Positions 51,544 to 64,000 of a stretch of 64,000 nt of DNA are shown here, piece after piece; the first letter of the stretch is position 1; the number at the start of each line of letters is the position of its first letter. The translations under genes and the position numbers were made by a program. Source of the DNA: Kiritimatiellia bacterium (GTDB taxonomy: Bacteria; Verrucomicrobiota; Kiritimatiellia; CAIQIC01; Lenti-01); the NCBI GenBank assembly GCA_040768005.1, contig JAXGNL010000006.1:9395-73394 (forward strand), written 5' to 3'. Under the pieces are notes generated by a model. It did not search any database, was not told the DNA's origin, and was given only the letters and a program-made list of their open reading frames with translations.

Positions 51544-52053
51544 TCTCGCAAAGATCGCAAAGGCCGCAGAGAGGCGAGAGGATGAAGGGCGTTCATAAAG
51601 GGCATAAGCATTTCTGGAAAAGGCCGCGATCATGTGAACAAGGAAAACTGACCTGCCAGGGAGGGGGCGGGACCGGGCTGAAGACTTTTGACAGGATTTA
51701 CAGGATGGACAGGATTCCGGAGGGGGGAAGGATTCTCTCACAGAGACACGGAGGCACGGAGGGGAGAGGTGAACTACGAAATACGCGCTTGTCCGCCCGT
51801 GGCGGAAAATACACGAAAGGGGCCGGGAACGGGGCGAAGACCTTTTTGACAGGATTCCGGACGAAAGATTTCACCACAGAGAGCACAGAGAGGGGACGGA
51901 GGGGGGAGAGGTTAACTATGAATGATACGAATGGGGGGCGGTAGGCAGACGCCGCACCGCGGCGTCCGGGGTCGGTTGCAAATGTCCGCCGGGGGCGCTG
52001 GATCGGAGAAGATCTGACAGGATTTCCAGGATGGACAGGATTCCGGAGGGGGG
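51544..52053. repeat. Cluster of 9-nt-period triplet repeat elements
   Basis: CGCAAAG x3, ACAGGAT x3 (twice), CACGGAG x3, ACGAAA x3, CACAGAG x2 and ACGAAT. Confidence 0.85.
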
Positions 52054-59331: not shown

Positions 59332-61639
59332 TTAGGCCTTCGCTGCGAGAGCAGCCAAAATCTTCTCGGGTGTCACCGGGATTTCGGTGAATTCGATGCC
59401 GGTGGCGTCGTGGATGGCGTTGAGGACGGCGGGGGCGACGCCGACGACGGGATGCTCGCCGATGCCGCGGGCGCCGAAGGGGCCGACTTCGCCGGGGCTT
59501 TGACGCACCGATGAATTGCCCAGCGGGGGCGTCCTTGATGCTGGGGAAGCGGTATTTGCCGAACGACGGGTTGAGGATCTTGCCGTTTTCGTCGTAGCGG
59601 ATTTCTCGTGGAGTGGTGGCGCCAGTCCGATCATGACGCCGCCGGCGATTTGTCCGCGGATCTGTTTTGGGATTGATGACGGTGCCGACATCGAAGGACG
59701 AGGCGAAGTGGTCAATGAGGACCTTGCCGGTTTTCGATGCGGATCTGGCAGGCCTGGGCGCCGAAGGTGTATTCGACGCCGAGACCGCCGCGCGTCCGTC
59801 GGCATCCGGGTTGGAGTAGCGGGGCAGGCGGGCATCGGAGGTGGTATGGACGACGTCGCCGATGGTGATGCCGAGCCCGGGTGATGTAGCCGTGGATGAG
59901 GCGCTGGATGGGGATGCCCAGGTCGGGATCGTGCTTGAGGAAGACGCGCTGGCCGCCGTAGTCGAGGTGATCGACATCGACGAGGAGGGCCTTGGCGGCG
60001 GTTTCCTTCATGACGGCGATGGCTTTGTTGCAGGCGCGGATGATGGCGCGTCCGCCTGCGGGTGAACATGGAGCCGATGGTCTGCCATTCCCAGGGGCAG
60101 TACTGGGTATCGATTTCGCGGTAGACGCTGATCTTGGCGGGGTCGATCTGGAGGGCTTCGCCGGCGATCTGCTGGACGGCCATGCGCAGGCCCTGGCCGA
60201 CTTCGGCGCCGCCCATGTTGATGACGACGGAGCCGTCGGGGTTCATCTTGAGGTAGCAGGACTTGGAGGAGAAGGGGGCGCCCTTGGGGGATTTCATGAG
60301 GGCGGCGAAGCCGCGGCCGTAGAAGTAGGTGTCATCCTCGGCGGGCTTGTCGCCGGCGAAGACGGCGGCGCGGACCTTTTCCTGGCATTCGAGGACGGAG
60401 CCGTTGGTTTCGTAGTAGCGCTCGCCGGCGGCGTTCTGTTTGCCGGGGCCGAGGTAGTTTTTCTCGCGGAGGGCGAAGGGGTCCATGCCGAGCTTGCGGG
60501 CGAGCTGGTCCATGAGGCGTTCGACGGGGAGGTGGCCTTCCTGGTGCCCGTAGCCGCGGAAGGCGCTGACGGCGGTGTTGGCAACGCATCAACGGAGCAG
60601 GGCGCAAGGCAACTCGTAGGCCGGTAAGCGTGGGTGGCGGCGTTGTAGACGTGCACGCCGGTGTCGGAGAACGCGCCGGTGGAGTGGAGGATATCGGCCT
60701 GAATGGCGACGAGGGTGCCGTCCTTTTTGGCGCCGATCTTCATCTTGTGGCGGAAGCCGTGCCCGATGAGGGTGCTGGTGAAGTCTTCGCGGCGGGAGGC
60801 GACCCACTTGACGGGGCGCCCGGGGACGTGGGAGGCGATCCAGGCGACGGTCTGTTCGACGGTGATGTCGGACTTGGTAGCCGAAGCGTGCCCGCCGATT
60901 TCGGGGATGCGGACGCGGACCATGGAGGAGAGGGGATGTGGTAGGCGTGGGCGAGGTCGTCGCGATGATGAAGGGGCAGATGGAGGAGGACCAGGCGTCG
61001 ATGGTGCCGTCTTCGTTGAAGCGGACGATGGCGCCGTGGGGTTCGATGGCGGCGCAGGAGCCGTGTAGATGGATTGGTCCGCCTTCGACGACGACGTCGG
61101 CCTCGGCGAAGCCCTTTTCGACGTCGCCCTTCTTGAGGCGGTACGTGTTGGCGATGTTGGTGCCGGGGACGGCGCCCATGCCGGGGAGGTGCCAGTAGTT
61201 TTCGGCGTGGTCGTGGATCAGGACGGCGTCGGGGGCGAGCGCGGCGCGGGCGTCGGTATAGACGGGCAGGGGCTTGTATTCGACCTTGATTTTGGCGAGG
61301 GCTTCCGTGGCCTGTCGCTTGGTCTGGGCGATGACGGCGGCGACATGGTCGCCGATGTGGCGGACCTTTTTCACGGCCATGGGGGAGATGTCGTCGATGT
61401 TGTCGCCGTAGAGGGTTTTGCAGTCGCGGCCGGTGACGACCTTGACGACGCCGGGCATTTTTCCGCTTCGGCGGTGTCGATGGAGAGGATATCGGCGTGG
61501 GCGGTTCTCGGGGTGGAGGATGGGCGGCGTGAGGAGGCCGGGGAGGCGGATGTCGTCGAGGTACTGGACTTTGCCGATGGCCTTCTGGATGGCGTCGGGG
61601 CGGGGTGAGGGATTGATCGATGTATTTGAATTTGGCCAT
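59332..61639 (-). CDS. Xanthine dehydrogenase/CoxL-family molybdopterin-binding subunit (heavily frameshifted)
   Basis: MAKFKYI start, PGVVKVVT, KGDVEKGF.EAD, IEPHG, GAEVGQG, QIAGG and GPFGARGIGE.P...APAV.NAI.DATG. Confidence 0.85.
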
Positions 61640-61706
61640 GGGGGGCTCCGGGTTCTGGAAGTTCCACAGGGGGAGACACTGTATCACGGGGCGGGGAGGG
61701 GCACTA

Positions 61707-61930
61707 GGAATGAAGAATTGCGAATGAAGAATTGAGAATGAAGAATGAGGGAAGCGGGAGTAACAGCCGGGGGGCACCACGGATGACACGGAGGACACGG
61801 GATGAGGAGGGGGAGAGGGAACAGCCGGGGCAGTTGGAAAGTCGTGAGCTACGGATTTCACGGAAGGACAGGACGCAGAGAGAGGGGAGGAGGGCGATTA
61901 TAAATGAAGAATTATGAATGAAGAATGAGG
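61707..61930. repeat. Heptamer (GAATGAA) and nonamer (CACGGA) repeat blocks
   Basis: GAATGAAGAATTGCGAATGAAGAATTGAGAATGAAGAATGAG; CCACGGATGACACGGAGGACACGG; ATAAATGAAGAATTATGAATGAAGAATGAG. Confidence 0.8.
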
Positions 61931-62294
61931 GGGGAGAGGGGCGGAGGAAGCGTTTAAAGGGAGGGAGGGGTTGGAGGGATGACCCTTTCCGTCCTGTTGA
62001 GTGGAGGCGCATAGCGCCGGAATCGAAATCACTTGTCCCCGCTGCGGGATTCCGGCCTGTTCCCGATGGCTGGCCTTGCGGACCAGGCCGAGATCCTCGA
62101 CTCCCGCCTTCGCGCAAGGCTTCGGCGGCCAAGTCCGGCTCGGGATGACAGCCTCCCGCGGTCAAATCGCTCACATCTGATCCGTCGTGCAACACCAGTT
62201 CCCGCAGATGGTTGGAAAATATCAGCTCTTCAACAGTTGGACAGGCATGATTAGGAATAAAGAATGATGGGGGGCGGAAAACGGGCTTGCCATT

Positions 62295-62320
62295 CCGATA
62301 TACATTCGGATATACATCGG
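62295..62320. promoter_or_regulatory. Putative ModE operator overlapping the regulator's own promoter
   Basis: CGATATACA-TTCGGA-TATACATCG resembles the CG(T/A)TATATA-N-TATATA(A/T)CG ModE box; TTGCCA at 62287 and TATACA at 62311. Confidence 0.7.
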
Positions 62321-62323
62321 CGC

Positions 62324-62665
62324 ATGAAGGTGCATGTGAAGCTGGCGCTGGCGAACGGACAGGACGAGGAGTTCTGCGGGGCGGGGGTTTTGGAGCTGCT
62401 GGAGGGGATCGGGGCGCATGGTTCGATCCATCGGGCGGCGCAGGAGATGGGGCTGTCGTACGTGAAGGCGCTGAAGATCCTGAACCGGGTGGAGAAGGAG
62501 CTGGGGCAGACGCTGCTGGAGCGTCACAAGGGCGGGGCGGAGCGGGGGCGGACGGAACTGACGCCGTTTGCGCGGCGGTTCATGCGGGATTTCGCCCGGC
62601 TGCGCGGCCGGGTGCGGCGGGCGGCGGATGCGGCGTTTAAGGGATTCCGGGAGACATATGAGTAG
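62324..62665 (+). CDS. modE: ModE-family winged-HTH regulator (no molybdate-binding TOBE domains)
   Basis: G.G..ELL..I...GSI..AA.EMGLSY..A......E..LG..LL....GG...G.T.LT. Confidence 0.85.
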   Translation: MKVHVKLALANGQDEEFCGAGVLELLEGIGAHGSIHRAAQEMGLSYVKALKILNRVEKELGQTLLERHKGGAERGRTELTPFARRFMRDFARLRGRVRRAADAAFKGFRETYE

Positions 62666-62815
62666 AGGGCGGAGGACAGAGGACAGAGGACGGAGGACAG
62701 AGGCCAGAGGGCAGAGGATAGAGGGCATCCGCCTTCGCCAAGGCTTCCCACTTCACATAAAATTACGTGGGACAAGACGGCGGACAAGGGGGACAGGGGA
62801 CAGAGGACAGAGGAA
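62663..62815. repeat. GAGGACA heptamer array interrupted by two nested CTTG-led hairpins
   Basis: Removing 62728-62788 restores the 7-nt phase. Confidence 0.85.
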
Positions 62816-62880
62816 CAGCCGGGGTACGGATCACGGAGTACTGATGTCTGAAACGGTTTGAAAAAGCGAAAGGGAAGTGA

Positions 62881-64000
62881 ATGAACAGGCGGCAAGGATG
62901 GATGATCGGGGTGGTGACGGCGGGGCTGCTGGCGGCGGGCGCGTGGGCGCAGGAGGAGGCGTCGGAGGTGTTTTCGCTGGGGGAGGTGCTGGTGGTGGGG
63001 ACGGAGGACCCGGCGGGGGAAGGGACGGCGGCGCAGGTGACGGGGGAGCAGGCGGACCGCCGGTTCCGGCGCAGCGTGGGGGAGGCGGCGGCGCTGGCGC
63101 CGGGCGTGACGCTGGTGCGGGTCGGGGGGCGCAACGAAGCGATGGCGTACGTGCGCGGATACGACACGCGGCAGGTGCCGCTGTTCATTGACGGCATTCC
63201 GGTTTATGTGCCCTATGACGGCAACGTGGACATGGGGCGGCTGGATACGTTCGGCATGTCCGGGCTGTCCATTGCCAAGGGGTTCAGTCCGGTGGTGTAC
63301 GGGCCGAACACGCTGGGGGGGGCGATCAACGTGGTGAGCCGCCGGCCGTCGCAGCCGGAGGAGCTGGAGACGCGGGCGGGGGTATTCAGCGGGGAGGGCC
63401 TGGAGGGGGCGGTGCGGGGCGGTCTGCTGCGGAAGAACGGCTATGCGCAGGCGGGGGTGTCGTGGCGGGAGCGCGATGATTTCCGGGTGTCGGACGATTT
63501 CCGGGCGGTGGAGACGGAAGACGGGGGGCGGCGGGGGAACTCCGACAGCCGGGACGTGCAGATCCACGCGAAGGCGGGGTGGACACCGGGCGGGGGCGAG
63601 GACGAGCTGGCGGCGGGGTTCATGCGGCAGGACAGCGAGAAGGGGGTGCCGGTTTACGCGGGCACGGACCCGGGCACGGTGCCGAGGTACTGGCGGTACA
63701 CGGAGTGGGTGAAGAACAGCGTGTATGCCGTGGGGCACAAGCGGCTCGGGCAGACGGGATACGTGAAGCCGCGGATCTACTACGACACCTACGAAAACAC
63801 GCTGAAGGCGTATGACGACGACACGTACACGACGCAGACGAAGCGGTCGTCGTGGACGAGCATTTACGATGATTATTCGTTCGGGGGGTCGGTGGAAGGC
63901 GGGGCGGTGGCGGCCGAGCGGCACGACCTGCGGGCGGCGGTGCATTACAAGCAGGATGTGCACCGCGAGCACAACGCGGGCAGTTCGGAGGCGACGTTCA
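62881..64000 (+). CDS. TonB-dependent receptor, 3'-partial
   Basis: Hand translation from ATG 62881: signal peptide MNRRQGWMIG...AWA, LGEVLVVG TonB box, VRGYD, IDGIPVY.PYDG and YGPNTLGGAINVVS plug; absent from the ORF track because it runs off the window. Confidence 0.92.
   Translation, partial: MNRRQGWMIGVVTAGLLAAGAWAQEEASEVFSLGEVLVVGTEDPAGEGTAAQVTGEQADRRFRRSVGEAAALAPGVTLVRVGGRNEAMAYVRGYDTRQVPLFIDGIPVYVPYDGNVDMGRLDTFGMSGLSIAKGFSPVVYGPNTLGGAINVVSRRPSQPEELETRAGVFSGEGLEGAVRGGLLRKNGYAQAGVSWRERDDFRVSDDFRAVETEDGGRRGNSDSRDVQIHAKAGWTPGGGEDELAAGFMRQDSEKGVPVYAGTDPGTVPRYWRYTEWVKNSVYAVGHKRLGQTGYVKPRIYYDTYENTLKAYDDDTYTTQTKRSSWTSIYDDYSFGGSVEGGAVAAERHDLRAAVHYKQDVHREHNAGSSEATF

What the first reader, a model, noticed from the sequence alone, without database searches (positions are those of the whole stretch)
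62663..62815. Three-level nesting of tiny CTTG-led hairpin elements inserted without target duplication
Seen: a GAGGACA/GGGGACA heptamer array is split by TCCGCCTTCGCCAAGGCT...ACGGCGGACAAG (62728-62788). That element is itself split by TCCCACTTCACATAAAATTACGTGGGACAAG (62746-62776). On the minus strand both read CTTG + 6-bp stem + GTA...GAA + stem. The stems differ but covary (TCCGCC/GGCGGA versus TCCCAC/GTGGGA). Removing the inner unit restores the outer one, and removing the outer one restores the 7-nt phase (gaggata gagggca ggggaca). Known: a hairpin with a 5' tetranucleotide and no TSD is the signature of HUH/Y1 single-strand chemistry (IS200/IS605, REP/RAYT). Inference: these are ~30-nt non-autonomous mobile units that target other repeats and are mobilised in trans. 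Similar palindromes occur in other genomes and may already be catalogued, but precise nested insertion with covariation is notable.
Basis: partly seen in the sequence, partly recalled or inferred. Interest (0 to 1): 0.85.

Follow-up and report, generated by a model that had tools for sequence, protein, structure and literature searches.

The report
Tiny self-nesting hairpin insertion element
A 30-base DNA hairpin that has been inserted precisely into a simple repeat, and then received a second copy inside itself, belongs to a family of very small insertion elements found almost unchanged in many bacterial phyla; the enzyme that moves them is unknown.

Summary
On the minus strand, window 62728-62788 reads CTTGTCCGCCGT[31-nt inner unit]AGCCTTGGCGAAGGCGGA inside a heptamer array whose phase is kept. 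Contigs from three independent studies span it without gaps.

The unit has a fixed plan: a CTTG tag, a 6-bp stem (TCCNNN/NNNGGA), a conserved internal loop (GWA/GAA), a variable covarying apical stem, then a loop. A covariance model finds 37 copies (E<=0.01) in this 2.58-Mb genome.

It is a discrete insertion without target duplication. Sister genomes hold exact or near-exact empty sites at three loci. Of 31 copies, 26 lie in heptamer arrays, a MITE-like repeat, loops of other palindromes or other units.

The same ~30-nt unit, with compensatory stem changes, occurs in many phyla, including Bradyrhizobium isolates and small CPR genomes. In some genomes it sits in frame inside mutS, mgsA and an aminoacyl-tRNA synthetase gene.

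Its commonest flank, CGA^AGC, is also present inside the unit, which explains the self-nesting at one fixed position.

No cognate enzyme was found. The Y1/RAYT genes here are flanked by other repeats. HUH chemistry remains an analogy. The closest precedent is the cyanobacterial SDR elements, cited from memory.

The parts
62664..62727 (-). Left part of the host heptamer array (GAGGACA/GAGGGCA on +, CTGTCCT-type on -). It ends 1 nt into a repeat.
   Evidence: TRF period 7, 8.7 copies, 62664-62724; sequence.
62777..62788 (-). 5' part of the outer unit on the minus strand: CTTG tag, the 5' arm of stem I (TCCGCC), then G and T of the internal loop. The unit is cut after this T.
   Evidence: An identical uninterrupted unit lies at G000:C6:74348-74377.
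62746..62776 (-). Inner 31-nt unit: CTTG, stem TCCCAC/GTGGGA, internal loop GTA/GAA, AT-rich apical part ATTTTATGT.
   Evidence: Covariance model hit of 27.5 bits, E 4.8e-5; fold. The same stem I with the canonical apical part occurs in relative G020.
62728..62745 (-). 3' part of the outer unit: AGCCTTGGCGAA followed by the 3' arm of stem I (GGCGGA).
   Evidence: The model hits a 12-nt piece of this half alone at 14.6 bits.
62789..62815 (-). Right part of the host heptamer array, in phase with the left part once the 61 nt are removed.
   Evidence: TRF 62791-62814, consensus GGACAGA, which is AGAGGAC rotated by 3.
62103..62133 (-). Another family member (31 nt, apical part GCCTTGCGC, degenerate tag CTTGG). 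It is inserted in a degenerate copy of a ~200-nt MITE-like repeat at GAGCCGGA^...^AGTCGAGG.
   Evidence: Model hit of 32 bits; flanks. The site is uninterrupted in 23 of the 31 aligned copies of the repeat; the other 8 carry a unit (3) or a different 23-nt insert (5).
62032..62053 (+). A CTTG-led short hairpin that is an intrinsic part of the MITE-like repeat. It is not a member of the unit family.
   Evidence: Present in all 31 aligned copies; not found by the model at E<=1.
51788..51806 (+). Short CTTG TCCGCC CGT GGCGGA hairpin. It has the same tag and stem I but no internal loop or stem II. It is related in form and is not matched by the model.
   Evidence: 8 such short TCCGCC hairpins with 3-6 nt loops; absent.

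Best explanation
The feature is two members of a family of ~30-nt, non-autonomous hairpin insertion units, one inserted inside the other, and the pair inserted in a heptamer array.

A unit is, 5' to 3' on its 'CTTG strand':
- the tag CTTG;
- stem I (T-C-C-N-N-N pairing with N-N-N-G-G-A);
- a conserved 3x3 internal loop (G-W-A opposite G-A-A);
- a short stem II that can be any complementary sequence;
- a small apical loop.

Shown:
- The unit has exact ends (^CTTG...GGA^).
- It makes no target duplication.
- It is present or absent between sister genomes and between paralogous repeats.
- Its stems change by compensatory substitutions.
- It occurs in many phyla with the same invariant positions.
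- Its commonest insertion context is CG(A/T)^AG(C).

The unit carries this context on the 5' side of its own internal loop (CCG-W^A-GCC). New copies therefore land at one fixed place in old copies, 12 nt from the 5' end, and this gives the nests.

Inferred:
- The unit is moved in trans as a folded single strand, the CTTG strand.
- It goes into places that are transiently single-stranded, namely slipped tandem repeats and the loops of other palindromes.
- A strand-cleaving and strand-joining enzyme recognises the tag, the base of stem I and the internal loop.

A Y1/HUH transposase of the RAYT or IS200/IS605 kind is the leading candidate by analogy only. No cognate gene was identified.
For: Exact insertion.
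- At C14:21458, G001 reads CTGCCCCC|TGTCTCC where G000 has CTGCCCCC[30 nt]TGTCCCC. No shifted boundary fits.
- At C14:9957, G004 reads CTGAACCC|TGTCCCC where G000 has the nested pair.
- The window's own array is uninterrupted in G001.

Empty and filled paralogues.
- There are 159 uninterrupted copies of the Bradyrhizobium repeat GTCATTGCGAGCGNAGCGA^AGCAATCC. Loci from Bradyrhizobium records carry the unit exactly at ^.
- In the MITE-like repeat the site holds a unit in 3 of 31 aligned copies, a different 23-nt insert in 5, and nothing in 23.

In-frame copies. Units lie inside conserved genes: MgsA/RarA, MutS, a class-I tRNA synthetase, DUF255 and a DNA methylase. Pfam hits were found in 5 of 5 tested.

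Structure.
- Among 83 units found with the three inner stem positions left free, all three pairs form in 69. Shuffles give a mean of 32.6 and a maximum of 46.
- Stem II varies as GCC/GGC, GCT/AGC, GTC/GAC, GCTC/GAGC, GCCC/GGGC and GCGC/GCGC (my reading of the listings).

One folding strand. There are 14 G.T pairs on the CTTG strand against 2 A.C.

Target. Among the 83 flanks, position -3 is C in 57, -2 is G in 50, -1 is A in 44, +1 is A in 51, +2 is G in 54 and +3 is C in 44.

Nests at the same offset occur in G000 and in other phyla (L074 with four or more levels, L131 with three, also L129, L078 and L112).

Target preference. Six of 31 copies lie within 45 nt of a period-7 array, although such arrays cover 0.31% of the genome. 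Twenty-six of 31 lie in a recognisable repeat or another unit (my classification).

Multicopy in 10 of 10 distant genomes tested, with 0 hits for the reversed pattern.

Y1_Tnp genes are present in G000 and in 4 of 5 distant carriers.
Against: - No enzyme is linked. Neither RAYT-like gene of G000/G001 is flanked by the units as its own repeat. No unit was found in the six Y1 loci of distant carriers.
- One carrier, G064 with 2 units, has no Y1_Tnp match.
- Several relatives with units gave no match to the RAYT fragment, for example G052 with 15 units. G052 does have Y1_Tnp matches by the family model.
- REP-RAYT pairs are lineage-specific (established knowledge; Nunvar 2010 and Bertels 2011 were seen only as listing and abstract). 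This unit is nearly invariant across phyla, which fits a conserved host factor or another mechanism better.
- The flank consensus holds for about a third of sites: CGA|AG in 23 of 81 and CGT|AG in 4. The heptamer-array sites of G000 read C^TG(T/C/A)CC instead, so there is no single strict target of the IS608 kind.
- Flanks are not generally a perfect hairpin around the site. In register -3/+2 the mean stem is 1.07 bp against 0.89 for shuffles.
- No excision product, circle junction or movement in real time was observed.
- A strand bias relative to replication could not be judged: 8 copies each on two complete chromosomes, with unknown origins.
Confidence: 0.6

Rival explanations
1. The same mobile unit moves through an RNA copy. 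The hairpin is transcribed, and the RNA or its reverse transcript is put into DNA. As I recall it, this is what was proposed for the cyanobacterial SDR elements.
For: - The strand-asymmetric wobble (14 G.T against 2 A.C) and the conserved GUA/GAA-type internal loop flanked by two covarying helices look like an RNA motif.
- Conservation across phyla would follow if a conserved RNA-binding or RNA-processing protein is used.
- The precedent is Elhai et al. 2008. I recall the abstract only. The paper is not held; only its reference entry was seen.
Against: - No transcript was seen. The one RNA-library contig laid stops at 62656, before the array. That is weak evidence, since contigs cannot show absence.
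- Rfam has no match in 61500-63000 at E<=1.
- G.T pairs and sheared G.A pairs also form in ssDNA.
- Units lie in either orientation relative to the neighbouring genes. Here the CTTG strand is antisense to both flanking genes.
- No reverse transcriptase was looked for.
Confidence: 0.15
2. There is no dedicated enzyme. Units spread by template switching or gene conversion between repeats that share short flanking identity (CGA...AGC, or heptamers). Nests arise because the unit itself contains CGW-AGC.
For: - Donor and target share the 3+3 nt context.
- Most copies lie in multicopy repeats, where conversion is easy.
- All 7 MITE-borne copies carry the same apical variant GCCTTGCGC or a near variant, so they probably spread with the MITE and not by new insertions.
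Against: - Exact 30-nt ends occur in unrelated contexts with no shared flank. Examples are C^TGTCC in arrays, GGA^GTCG in the MITE, CTTG^...^CCGTGGG in another hairpin, and unique coding sequence of mutS, mgsA and a tRNA-synthetase gene in other phyla.
- Near-identity across phyla needs horizontal spread and fresh insertion.
- Three nucleotides of identity is little for homology-driven copying.
Confidence: 0.12
3. The hairpin is a conserved functional site, such as a protein-binding site, an RNA stabiliser or terminator, or a regulatory motif. It is kept by selection, and the nests are local duplications.
For: - There are invariant positions: 16 of 30 columns are invariant in 38 distinct sequences.
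- Both stems covary.
- REPs are known to bind host proteins and to affect mRNA (background sections of PMC3733652 and PMC2817692, seen as passages and abstract).
Against: - Presence and absence differ at orthologous sites of genomes about 90% identical.
- The distribution is patchy: 28 of 61 relatives and 9 of 151 genomes of another phylum.
- Some copies lie inside conserved proteins.
- No T-run follows the hairpin in any of the 31 copies.
- The nested partners have different stems that each pair with their own partner, in the order X1 X2 Y2 Y1. A tandem duplication does not give this.
- A function is not excluded, but it does not explain the distribution.
Confidence: 0.08
4. The nested structure is an assembly or binning artefact.
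For: - The genome is a 93-contig draft.
- Arrays break contigs in relatives.
- Some short contigs in the runs skip 31 or 75 nt here (table 5).
Against: - Three independent runs from three studies give contigs identical across the whole nest.
- The skipping contigs have 21-26 nt sides and 3-4 other letters. They fit paralogous arrays or other organisms.
- The same architecture recurs at other loci and in finished isolate genomes.
Confidence: 0.01

Closest known systems
Small dispersed repeats (SDR1-8) of Nostoc and relatives (Elhai et al., Genome Res 2008;18:1484). The content is recalled from the abstract. The paper is not held; only the citation was seen, in PMC3116915.
   Same: - Very small (21-27 nt) dispersed units.
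- A hairpin supported by compensatory changes.
- Often embedded in tandem heptamer repeats or in minitransposons.
- Often found inside copies of themselves, giving nested insertions.
- Judged recently mobile, with no encoded protein.

All of these behaviours were found here.
   Different: - As I recall, SDRs are confined to one subgroup of cyanobacteria. This unit is found in many phyla. In the phylum of a record titled as cyanobacterium it is rare: 9 of 151 sampled genomes, and mostly single hits.
- It is slightly longer (30-34 nt). It has a CTTG tag, a conserved GWA/GAA internal loop and a definable target motif.
- Whether any SDR family has this sequence could not be checked.
REP / REPIN elements with their RAYT (TnpA-REP) Y1 transposases. 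Includes the GTAG- and CGTC-tagged superfamilies (Di Nocera et al. 2013, PMC3733652, passages read).
   Same: - A 20-40 nt palindrome with a conserved terminal tetranucleotide.
- Multicopy and non-autonomous.
- Some REPs sit inside other palindromes and inside ORFs, including DNA-repair genes (PMC3733652, sections 7 and 15).
- Single-strand HUH chemistry gives no target duplication.
   Different: - The tag is CTTG. That paper's main text holds neither CTTG nor CAAG.
- There are only about 31-45 copies here.
- No RAYT is flanked by these units.
- The sequence is conserved across phyla instead of being lineage-specific.
- Self-nesting at a fixed internal site is not described there ('nested' occurs 0 times).
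- Its 'GCGG/CCGC type loops up to 27 bp' in a Bradyrhizobium REP family might be an earlier sighting of this unit. I could not check this, because the figures are not held.
IS200/IS605 family and its miniature derivatives (PATEs). Knowledge of IS608 and ISDra2 is recalled; the abstract of PMC6006769 was seen in a listing.
   Same: - Insertion as single-stranded DNA without target duplication.
- Hairpins at the ends.
- A short sequence next to the hairpin foot is used in site recognition.
- A preference for transiently single-stranded DNA.
   Different: - Those elements have two different ends and insert strictly 3' of one tetra- or pentanucleotide.
- This unit is a single hairpin of 30 nt with a loose target.
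Rickettsia palindromic elements (RPE). Mentioned in PMC3733652, section 3.
   Same: - Palindromic repeats found in frame inside protein-coding genes.
- This unit is 30 nt long, which is 10 codons.
- Its GAAG form has no stop codon in any of the six frames (read from the sequence).
- It lies in frame in five conserved genes.
   Different: RPEs are about 100-150 bp and restricted to Rickettsia (recalled). They have no tag and no self-nesting.

Membership tests
REP/RAYT (REPIN) system | A short imperfect palindrome with a conserved tetranucleotide at one end. | tested here: met
   CTTG (variants CCTG and CTCG) lies 5' of stem I in the copies. The tag differs from the described GTAG and CGTC tags.
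REP/RAYT (REPIN) system | A cognate RAYT gene flanked by the same REP sequences. | tested here: not met
   - The RAYT at C3:3643 is flanked by GTAG-CCGGGC hairpins.
- The RAYT at C7:69250, and its intact orthologues in G001, G029, G023, G025 and G020, are flanked by GGAGCC-GGGAC and CCCCGAC hairpins.
- The only units near the C7 gene sit inside the loop of that other REP.
- No unit lies in the six Y1 loci of distant carriers.
REP/RAYT (REPIN) system | High copy number, with inverted doublets (REPINs) as the replicating form. | tested here: not met
   There are 37 copies at E<=0.01. The copies are single or nested in direct orientation, not inverted doublets.
IS200/IS605-derived miniature elements | Insertion without target-site duplication. 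| tested here: met
   Exact empty and filled pairs without any repeated flank base; phase kept in the arrays.
IS200/IS605-derived miniature elements | Insertion strictly 3' of one specific tetra- or pentanucleotide, which also serves as the left cleavage site. | tested here: inconclusive
   CGA|AG in 23 of 81 sites and CGT|AG in 4. The other sites are varied, and array sites read C|TG.
IS200/IS605-derived miniature elements | Two distinct subterminal hairpins (left and right ends). | tested here: not met
   There is one hairpin per unit.
Cyanobacterial SDR elements (features recalled) | A hairpin kept by compensatory changes. | tested here: met
   69 of 83 against a shuffle mean of 32.6. One search was run on an alignment that I had pre-selected for paired stems, so its 100% paired figure is by construction. 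Five of its 9 pairs show changes on both sides.
Cyanobacterial SDR elements (features recalled) | Embedded in tandem heptamers or minitransposons, and nested in copies of themselves. | tested here: met
   Heptamer arrays; the MITE-like repeat; self-nests.
Cyanobacterial SDR elements (features recalled) | Confined to a coherent subgroup of cyanobacteria, with the sequence of one of the eight SDR families. | tested here: not met
   The taxon limit is not met. Sequence identity to an SDR family could not be tested, because the paper is not held.
Intrinsic transcription terminator | A G+C-rich hairpin followed directly by a run of T. | tested here: not met
   None of the 31 copies is followed by a T-run. 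The 3' flanks begin TGTCC, AGCC, GTCGA and the like.
Any Rfam RNA family | A match to a curated covariance model. | tested here: not met
   No match at E<=1 in window 61500-63000, either strand.

The most novel reading that the evidence does not exclude
A single, sequence-conserved family of ~30-nt hairpins is a pan-bacterial mobile element that has not been recognised as such.
- It would be the smallest known mobile DNA with a cross-phylum range.
- It carries its own preferred target (CGW^AGC) and so builds nests.
- It colonises tandem repeats, other palindromic repeats and even essential genes, where it adds 10 codons.
- It is moved either by a widely conserved enzyme not yet linked to it or by core replication or repair machinery.
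Probability: 0.45. Interest if true: 0.88.

Novelty: new variant of a known kind. Interest (0 to 1): 0.75.

Why it matters
How the many very short palindromic repeats of bacterial genomes arise and spread is an old open question. Only for E. coli-type REPs is an enzyme known, and even there movement has not been reconstituted.

This family offers an unusually clean handle:
- exact ends;
- a definable target that it carries within itself;
- two covarying helices around an invariant internal loop;
- empty and filled sites between close relatives;
- the same unit in culturable bacteria (Bradyrhizobium) and in tiny CPR genomes.

That makes the search for the enzyme a tractable phylogenetic-profiling and biochemical problem.

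It also matters for annotation. The unit adds a 10-residue insert such as STFAKATADK or RLRQGFGGQ to real proteins. I expect, from recall, that it also seeds spurious ORFs. It breaks assemblies at arrays. The unit could also serve as a marker of horizontal exchange between phyla.

Tried and rejected
- Rfam scan of 61500-63000: nothing at E<=1.
- Neighbour-gene enrichment. I made 2,513 stop-to-stop frames (>=90 aa) from the 80 public loci and clustered them all-against-all. The largest cross-locus clusters were ABC-transporter-like, sensor-kinase-like and housekeeping proteins, in at most 5 loci. No recurrent nuclease or recombinase appeared.
- RAYT association: rejected for the two RAYT-like genes.
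- The ~330-aa Y1 family with a C-terminal extension. It is present in 42 of 61 relatives. These include G002, which has no unit. It is missing from G031, G025, G038, G041, G043, G054 and G055, which have units. So there is no tracking.
- RAYT-fragment search against unit counts, by my tally within the window's family. Twelve of 13 genomes with units and 13 of 22 without units have a match. This is weak, the genomes are kin and not independent, and the query was a 75-aa fragment.
- Idea that the target is the tip of a GNA-triloop mini-hairpin. Consecutive flank pairing in nine registers is barely above shuffles. The idea was dropped as a general rule, although some sites do sit in longer inverted repeats.
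- Replication-strand bias: only 8 copies on each of two complete chromosomes, with origins unknown to me. Not informative.
- Orthologue search for the nested locus C6:4462 in five same-genus genomes: the flanks were not recovered.
- C6:74348: the unit is shared with G001 in mutated form, so this is an old insertion and not an empty site.
- Joints in run contigs that skip exactly the inner 31 nt (X9, one 68-nt contig, 3 other letters) or 75 nt (X6, X9). They have short sides and probably come from paralogous arrays or other strains. They are not used as evidence.
- RNA. The RNA-library contig covers 62300-62656 only. No conclusion on transcription.
- Literature. Elhai 2008 is not held. Searches for 'small dispersed repeat(s)' found only citing or unrelated papers. 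A full-text search for six strings of the unit or its peptides found no paper with the two loop strings or the two peptides; the two 10-mers hit only unrelated papers among the 15 of 125 listed. A search on nested or smallest mobile elements gave nothing relevant. The Geobacter genome paper mentions other heptanucleotide elements only. Supplementary files were not consulted. Those of PMC3733652 (repeat lists) and PMC2700814 (multicopy sequence alignments) could hold this unit.
- Viral contigs: 15 stretches with an exact match among the IMG/VR contigs. They were not examined further.
Full report
**Observation**

On the minus strand, window 62788-62728 reads CTTGTCCGCCGT, then CTTGTCCCACGTAATTTTATGTGAAGTGGGA, then AGCCTTGGCGAAGGCGGA.

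The feature lies in a 215-nt spacer. Upstream is a small HTH_1 regulator gene (62264-62665). Downstream is a TonB-dependent receptor gene (from 62881).

TRF finds period-7 arrays on both sides (62664-62724 and 62791-62814). Their consensus units (AGAGGAC and GGACAGA) are in the same phase once the 61 nt are taken out.

As single strands, the 30-nt, 31-nt and 61-nt pieces fold as a hairpin, a hairpin, and a hairpin within a hairpin, with z about -2.7 each.

Contigs from three independent runs of three studies reproduce 62694-62842 with no gap and 0 to 2 other letters. The nest is therefore not an assembly error.

**The unit and its copies in this genome**

The window is part of a 2.58-Mb, 93-contig draft of 65.9% G+C.

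A blastn-short search with an uninterrupted copy (C6:74348-74377) and a structural scan found about 20 close copies and several more nests.

I built a covariance model from 38 distinct units taken from many genomes. It finds 45 matches at E<=1 in the genome, 37 at E<=0.01 and 31 below 1e-4. These include the inner unit (27.5 bits) and the copy at window 62103-62133 (32 bits).

In a strict scan, 3 of 157 CTTG-led perfect hairpins restore another such hairpin when cut out. All three do so at offset 12. Eleven control tetranucleotides gave 0 or 1.

Relaxed inspection adds further cases:
- C16:39613.
- C22:34300, C22:38291 and C57:4452. These show three levels: a CCCACGGG...CCCGTGGG hairpin contains a CTTGCCCGAC...GTCTGG unit, which contains a CTTGTCCGCC...GGCGGA unit.
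- C33:25680-25830.

**Architecture**

An unbiased sample came from the public genome collection. The pattern left the three inner stem positions free on both sides, and it yielded 83 units in 80 loci. The three pairs all form in 69 of the 83. Shuffles give a mean of 32.6 and a maximum of 46.

There are 14 G.T pairs on the CTTG strand and 2 A.C pairs, so one strand is the folding strand.

A looser pattern left the apical part free. It shows that the segment between G-W-A and G-A-A is almost always a small stem-loop of varying sequence. Examples are GCC-TT-GGC, GCT-TT-AGC, GTC-TGC-GAC, GCTC-GAA-GAGC, GCCC-GGA-GGGC and GCGC-GCA-GCGC (my reading of the listings).

The conserved parts are therefore:
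- the tag CTTG;
- the first three pairs of stem I (T-A, C-G, C-G, with T-A changing to C-G in some lineages);
- the symmetric internal loop CG-W-AG over CG-A-AG.

The counts were made on an alignment that I had filtered for paired stems. They overstate the pairing, and I cite them only for the number of pairs with changes on both sides (5 of 9).

**Evidence that the unit is an insertion**

(a) Orthologous sites.
- In the closest relative, G001 (about 91% identity here), the window's heptamer array runs on without any unit. The array differs in length, so this is an empty site in a variable array.
- Fourteen other relatives with both flanking genes have short or different spacers without it.
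- At C14:21458, G001 has CTGCCCCC|TGTCTCC where G000 has CTGCCCCC, then 30 nt, then TGTCCCC. Neither boundary can be shifted by a base.
- At C14:9957, G004 has CTGAACCC|TGTCCCC where G000 has a nested pair.
- At C6:74348, G001 shares the unit in a mutated form, so that insertion is older.

(b) Paralogous sites.
- A ~200-nt repeat with terminal inverted repeats has 31 aligned copies.
- The site CTCGAC^TCCGCTCGGG holds a unit in 3 of the 31, a different 23-nt insert in 5, and nothing in 23.
- Seven model hits carry this MITE flank. The window's 62103-62133 copy is one of them.
- In a finished Bradyrhizobium chromosome, the repeat GTCATTGCGAGCGNAGCGA^AGCAATCC occurs 159 times uninterrupted. Bradyrhizobium loci carry the unit exactly at ^. 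That host repeat looks like the CGTC-tagged REP class of Di Nocera et al. (my inference).

(c) Coding sequence.
- Among the 83 units, 18 stop-free frames span a unit with at least 100 codons on both sides.
- Five were tested and all five are real genes: MgsA/RarA AAA+ ATPase, MutS, a class-I aminoacyl-tRNA synthetase, a DUF255 thioredoxin-like protein and a DNA methylase.
- The unit is 30 nt long. Its GAAG form has no stop codon in any frame (read from the sequence).

**Where it goes**

Of the 31 best copies in G000, by my classification:
- 5 lie in CTGTCCY-type heptamer arrays;
- 7 lie inside another unit;
- 7 lie in the MITE-like repeat;
- 3 lie in the loop of the CCCACGGG/CCCGTGGG hairpin family;
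- 4 lie in the loop of the GGAGCC-GGGAC palindromes that flank a RAYT gene;
- 5 lie elsewhere.

Period-7 arrays (201 arrays, 7,971 bp) make up 0.31% of the genome, yet 6 of 31 copies are within 45 nt of one.

Across phyla the flanks have a consensus, CGA before the unit and AGC after it. Among the 83 flanks, position -3 is C in 57, -2 is G in 50, -1 is A in 44, +1 is A in 51, +2 is G in 54 and +3 is C in 44. The exact form CGA|AG occurs in 23 of 81 sites.

The same six letters, CG-W^AGC, form the 5' side of the unit's internal loop. That is the place where inner units sit. Self-nesting is thus explained by target preference. It recurs in other phyla: four or more levels in L074, three in L131, and two in L129, L078 and L112. 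In every case the stems pair in the order X1 X2 Y2 Y1.

The array sites of G000 (C^TGTCC and similar) do not fit this consensus, so the preference is not strict. A strict hairpin around the site is not general either.

**Distribution**

By record titles they come from:
- Planctomycetota, Verrucomicrobiota, Kiritimatiellia and Acidobacteriota;
- Elusimicrobia, Armatimonadetes and Anaerolineales;
- alpha-, delta- and gamma-proteobacteria, and Bdellovibrio;
- several Bradyrhizobium isolates;
- a cyanobacterium-labelled MAG;
- many Patescibacteria of 35-48% G+C.

Ten of 10 distant genomes tested hold 2 to 43 copies at up to 2 mismatches. The reversed pattern finds none. Lineages have their own stem variants, for example TCCGAC/GTTGGA in a Saccharibacteria genome and GCGC apical stems in G071. 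This is the signature of within-genome proliferation.

The distribution is patchy. It is found in 28 of 61 relatives of the window's genome, with 3 control hits in all. It is found in 9 of 151 sampled genomes of the phylum of G071, mostly as single and partly dubious hits. Fifteen viral contigs carry it.

**Mechanism**

The facts are: exact ends, no duplication, a strand-specific fold, a conserved tag plus internal loop, targets in slipped repeats and palindrome loops, a sequence preference, and non-autonomy.

These fit trans-mobilisation of a folded single strand, as in HUH/Y1 systems.

The link to a Y1 enzyme is not shown:
- G000 has 7 Y1_Tnp matches.
- The 160-aa RAYT-like gene at C3:3643 is flanked by GTAG-tagged CCGGGC hairpins.
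- The gene at C7:69250 is cut by a TGA after 75 codons. It is intact in G001. It and its orthologues are flanked by GGAGCC-GGGAC and CCCCGAC hairpins.
- The four ~330-aa Y1 genes are flanked by GGGGTCAGNCC, and that family does not track unit presence.
- Distant carriers have Y1_Tnp genes in 4 of 5 cases, but no unit lies within the loci taken around six of those genes.
- The 8-kb neighbourhoods of 80 units share no nuclease gene.

Near-invariance across phyla is unlike REP-RAYT pairs. It suggests either a conserved dedicated enzyme that travels horizontally or a conserved host enzyme.

I give 0.6 to trans-mobilised single-strand insertion with an unidentified enzyme. Of that, about half is for a Y1/HUH enzyme. 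I give 0.15 to an RNA route, 0.12 to homology-driven copying alone, 0.08 to a static functional site and 0.01 to artefact.

**Comparison with what is known**

The behaviour matches what I recall of the cyanobacterial SDR elements of Elhai et al. 2008: 21-27 nt, hairpins with compensatory changes, in tandem heptamers and minitransposons, nested in themselves, called perhaps the smallest mobile elements. That paper could not be read here. Its citation was seen in PMC3116915.

The present family differs in tag, size, internal loop, definable target and, above all, range.

Among REP classes, Di Nocera et al. 2013 (passages read) describe GTAG and CGTC tags, REPs within palindromes and REPs within ORFs. 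They do not describe a CTTG tag or nesting.

No held paper contains the unit's loop strings or its peptides.

I therefore class it as a new variant of a known kind.

**Verdict**

Its core inference, tiny mobile units that insert into other repeats without target duplication, is supported. The HUH assignment remains an analogy.

The finding is larger than reported. The unit is a member of a cross-phylum family with a self-contained target. This makes the long-standing question of how such repeats move directly testable.

Noticed in passing
window about 61990-62180 (degenerate copy); full copies e.g. G000:C53:3070-3320: A ~200-nt MITE-like repeat with terminal inverted repeats (GCATCTGCGATTCGGTGCAC ... 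GCACCGAATCGCAGATGC). It has 31 aligned copies. One internal site is empty in 23 of them, holds a unit in 3, and holds a different 23-nt insert (CCTCCACGGGCGGGCAGGCAAGG) in 5.
   Followed up: partly
window 51788-51806; also G000:C28:8581, C28:11790, C62:1130, C26:1640, C30:28958, C1:86840-86892: Short CTTG TCCGCC (3-6 nt) GGCGGA hairpins with the same tag and stem I as the unit, but without the internal loop or stem II. A CCTG variant lies next to the RAYT gene at C3, and a CAAG-ended one lies in the G003 orthologous spacer. They may be a minimal relative of the unit.
   Followed up: partly
G000:C3:3643-3924 (L005) and G000:C7:69250-69474 (L007/L028): Two RAYT-sized Y1 genes, each with its own flanking palindromes (GTAG-CCGGGC, and GGAGCC-GGGAC with CCCCGAC). 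The C7 gene is cut by a TGA after 75 codons, but it is intact (155 aa) in G001:C326. Units of the CCTG variant sit inside the loop of four GGAGCC-GGGAC palindromes.
   Followed up: partly
G000:C12:19768-20754, C4:30643-31179, C10:18471-19253, C4:78501-79496: Four ~330-350-aa genes with an N-terminal Y1_Tnp domain and a long C-terminal extension. Each is bracketed by GGGGTCAG(A/C)CC-type motifs. The family is widespread among relatives (42 of 61).
   Followed up: partly
L108:2142-3434, L123:794-4189, L098:2228-5359, L066:264-2513, L096:787-3246: In other phyla, the 30-nt unit lies in frame inside genes for MgsA/RarA, MutS, a class-I tRNA synthetase, a DUF255 protein and a DNA methylase. It adds inserts such as RLRQGFGGQ, STFAKATADK and DLSAEALAKAE.
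   Followed up: partly
whole genome G000: There are 201 period-7 tandem arrays (7,971 bp, 0.31% of the genome) of several unit types, such as CCTCTGT, CCCCTGT and CCGAGGT. Arrays often end contigs in the related drafts.
   Followed up: partly
L011, L012, L013, L017, L019 (orthologous spacers in another genus): A different heptamer array (AATATCC/AATATTC) sits in the spacer, or at the start of the TonB-dependent receptor gene, at the place where the window has its GAGGACA array.
   Followed up: no
window 62745/62777 and 62715/62791: Short contigs in runs X9 and X6 join across exactly the inner 31 nt, or across 75 nt. They could be alleles without the inner unit, or reads from paralogous arrays. 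The sides are only 21-26 nt, with 3-4 other letters.
   Followed up: no
L210-L224: Fifteen IMG/VR viral contigs hold an exact match to the unit pattern. It was not checked whether they are prophage flanks or true phage DNA.
   Followed up: no
G000:C33:268-294 and C72:1-25: A unit-like sequence (CTTGCCAGCCGAAGCCTTGGCGAAGGC) lies between two copies of a prepilin-type N-terminal motif coding sequence (…IELL…), as if inserted in or beside a pseudopilin gene start.
   Followed up: no
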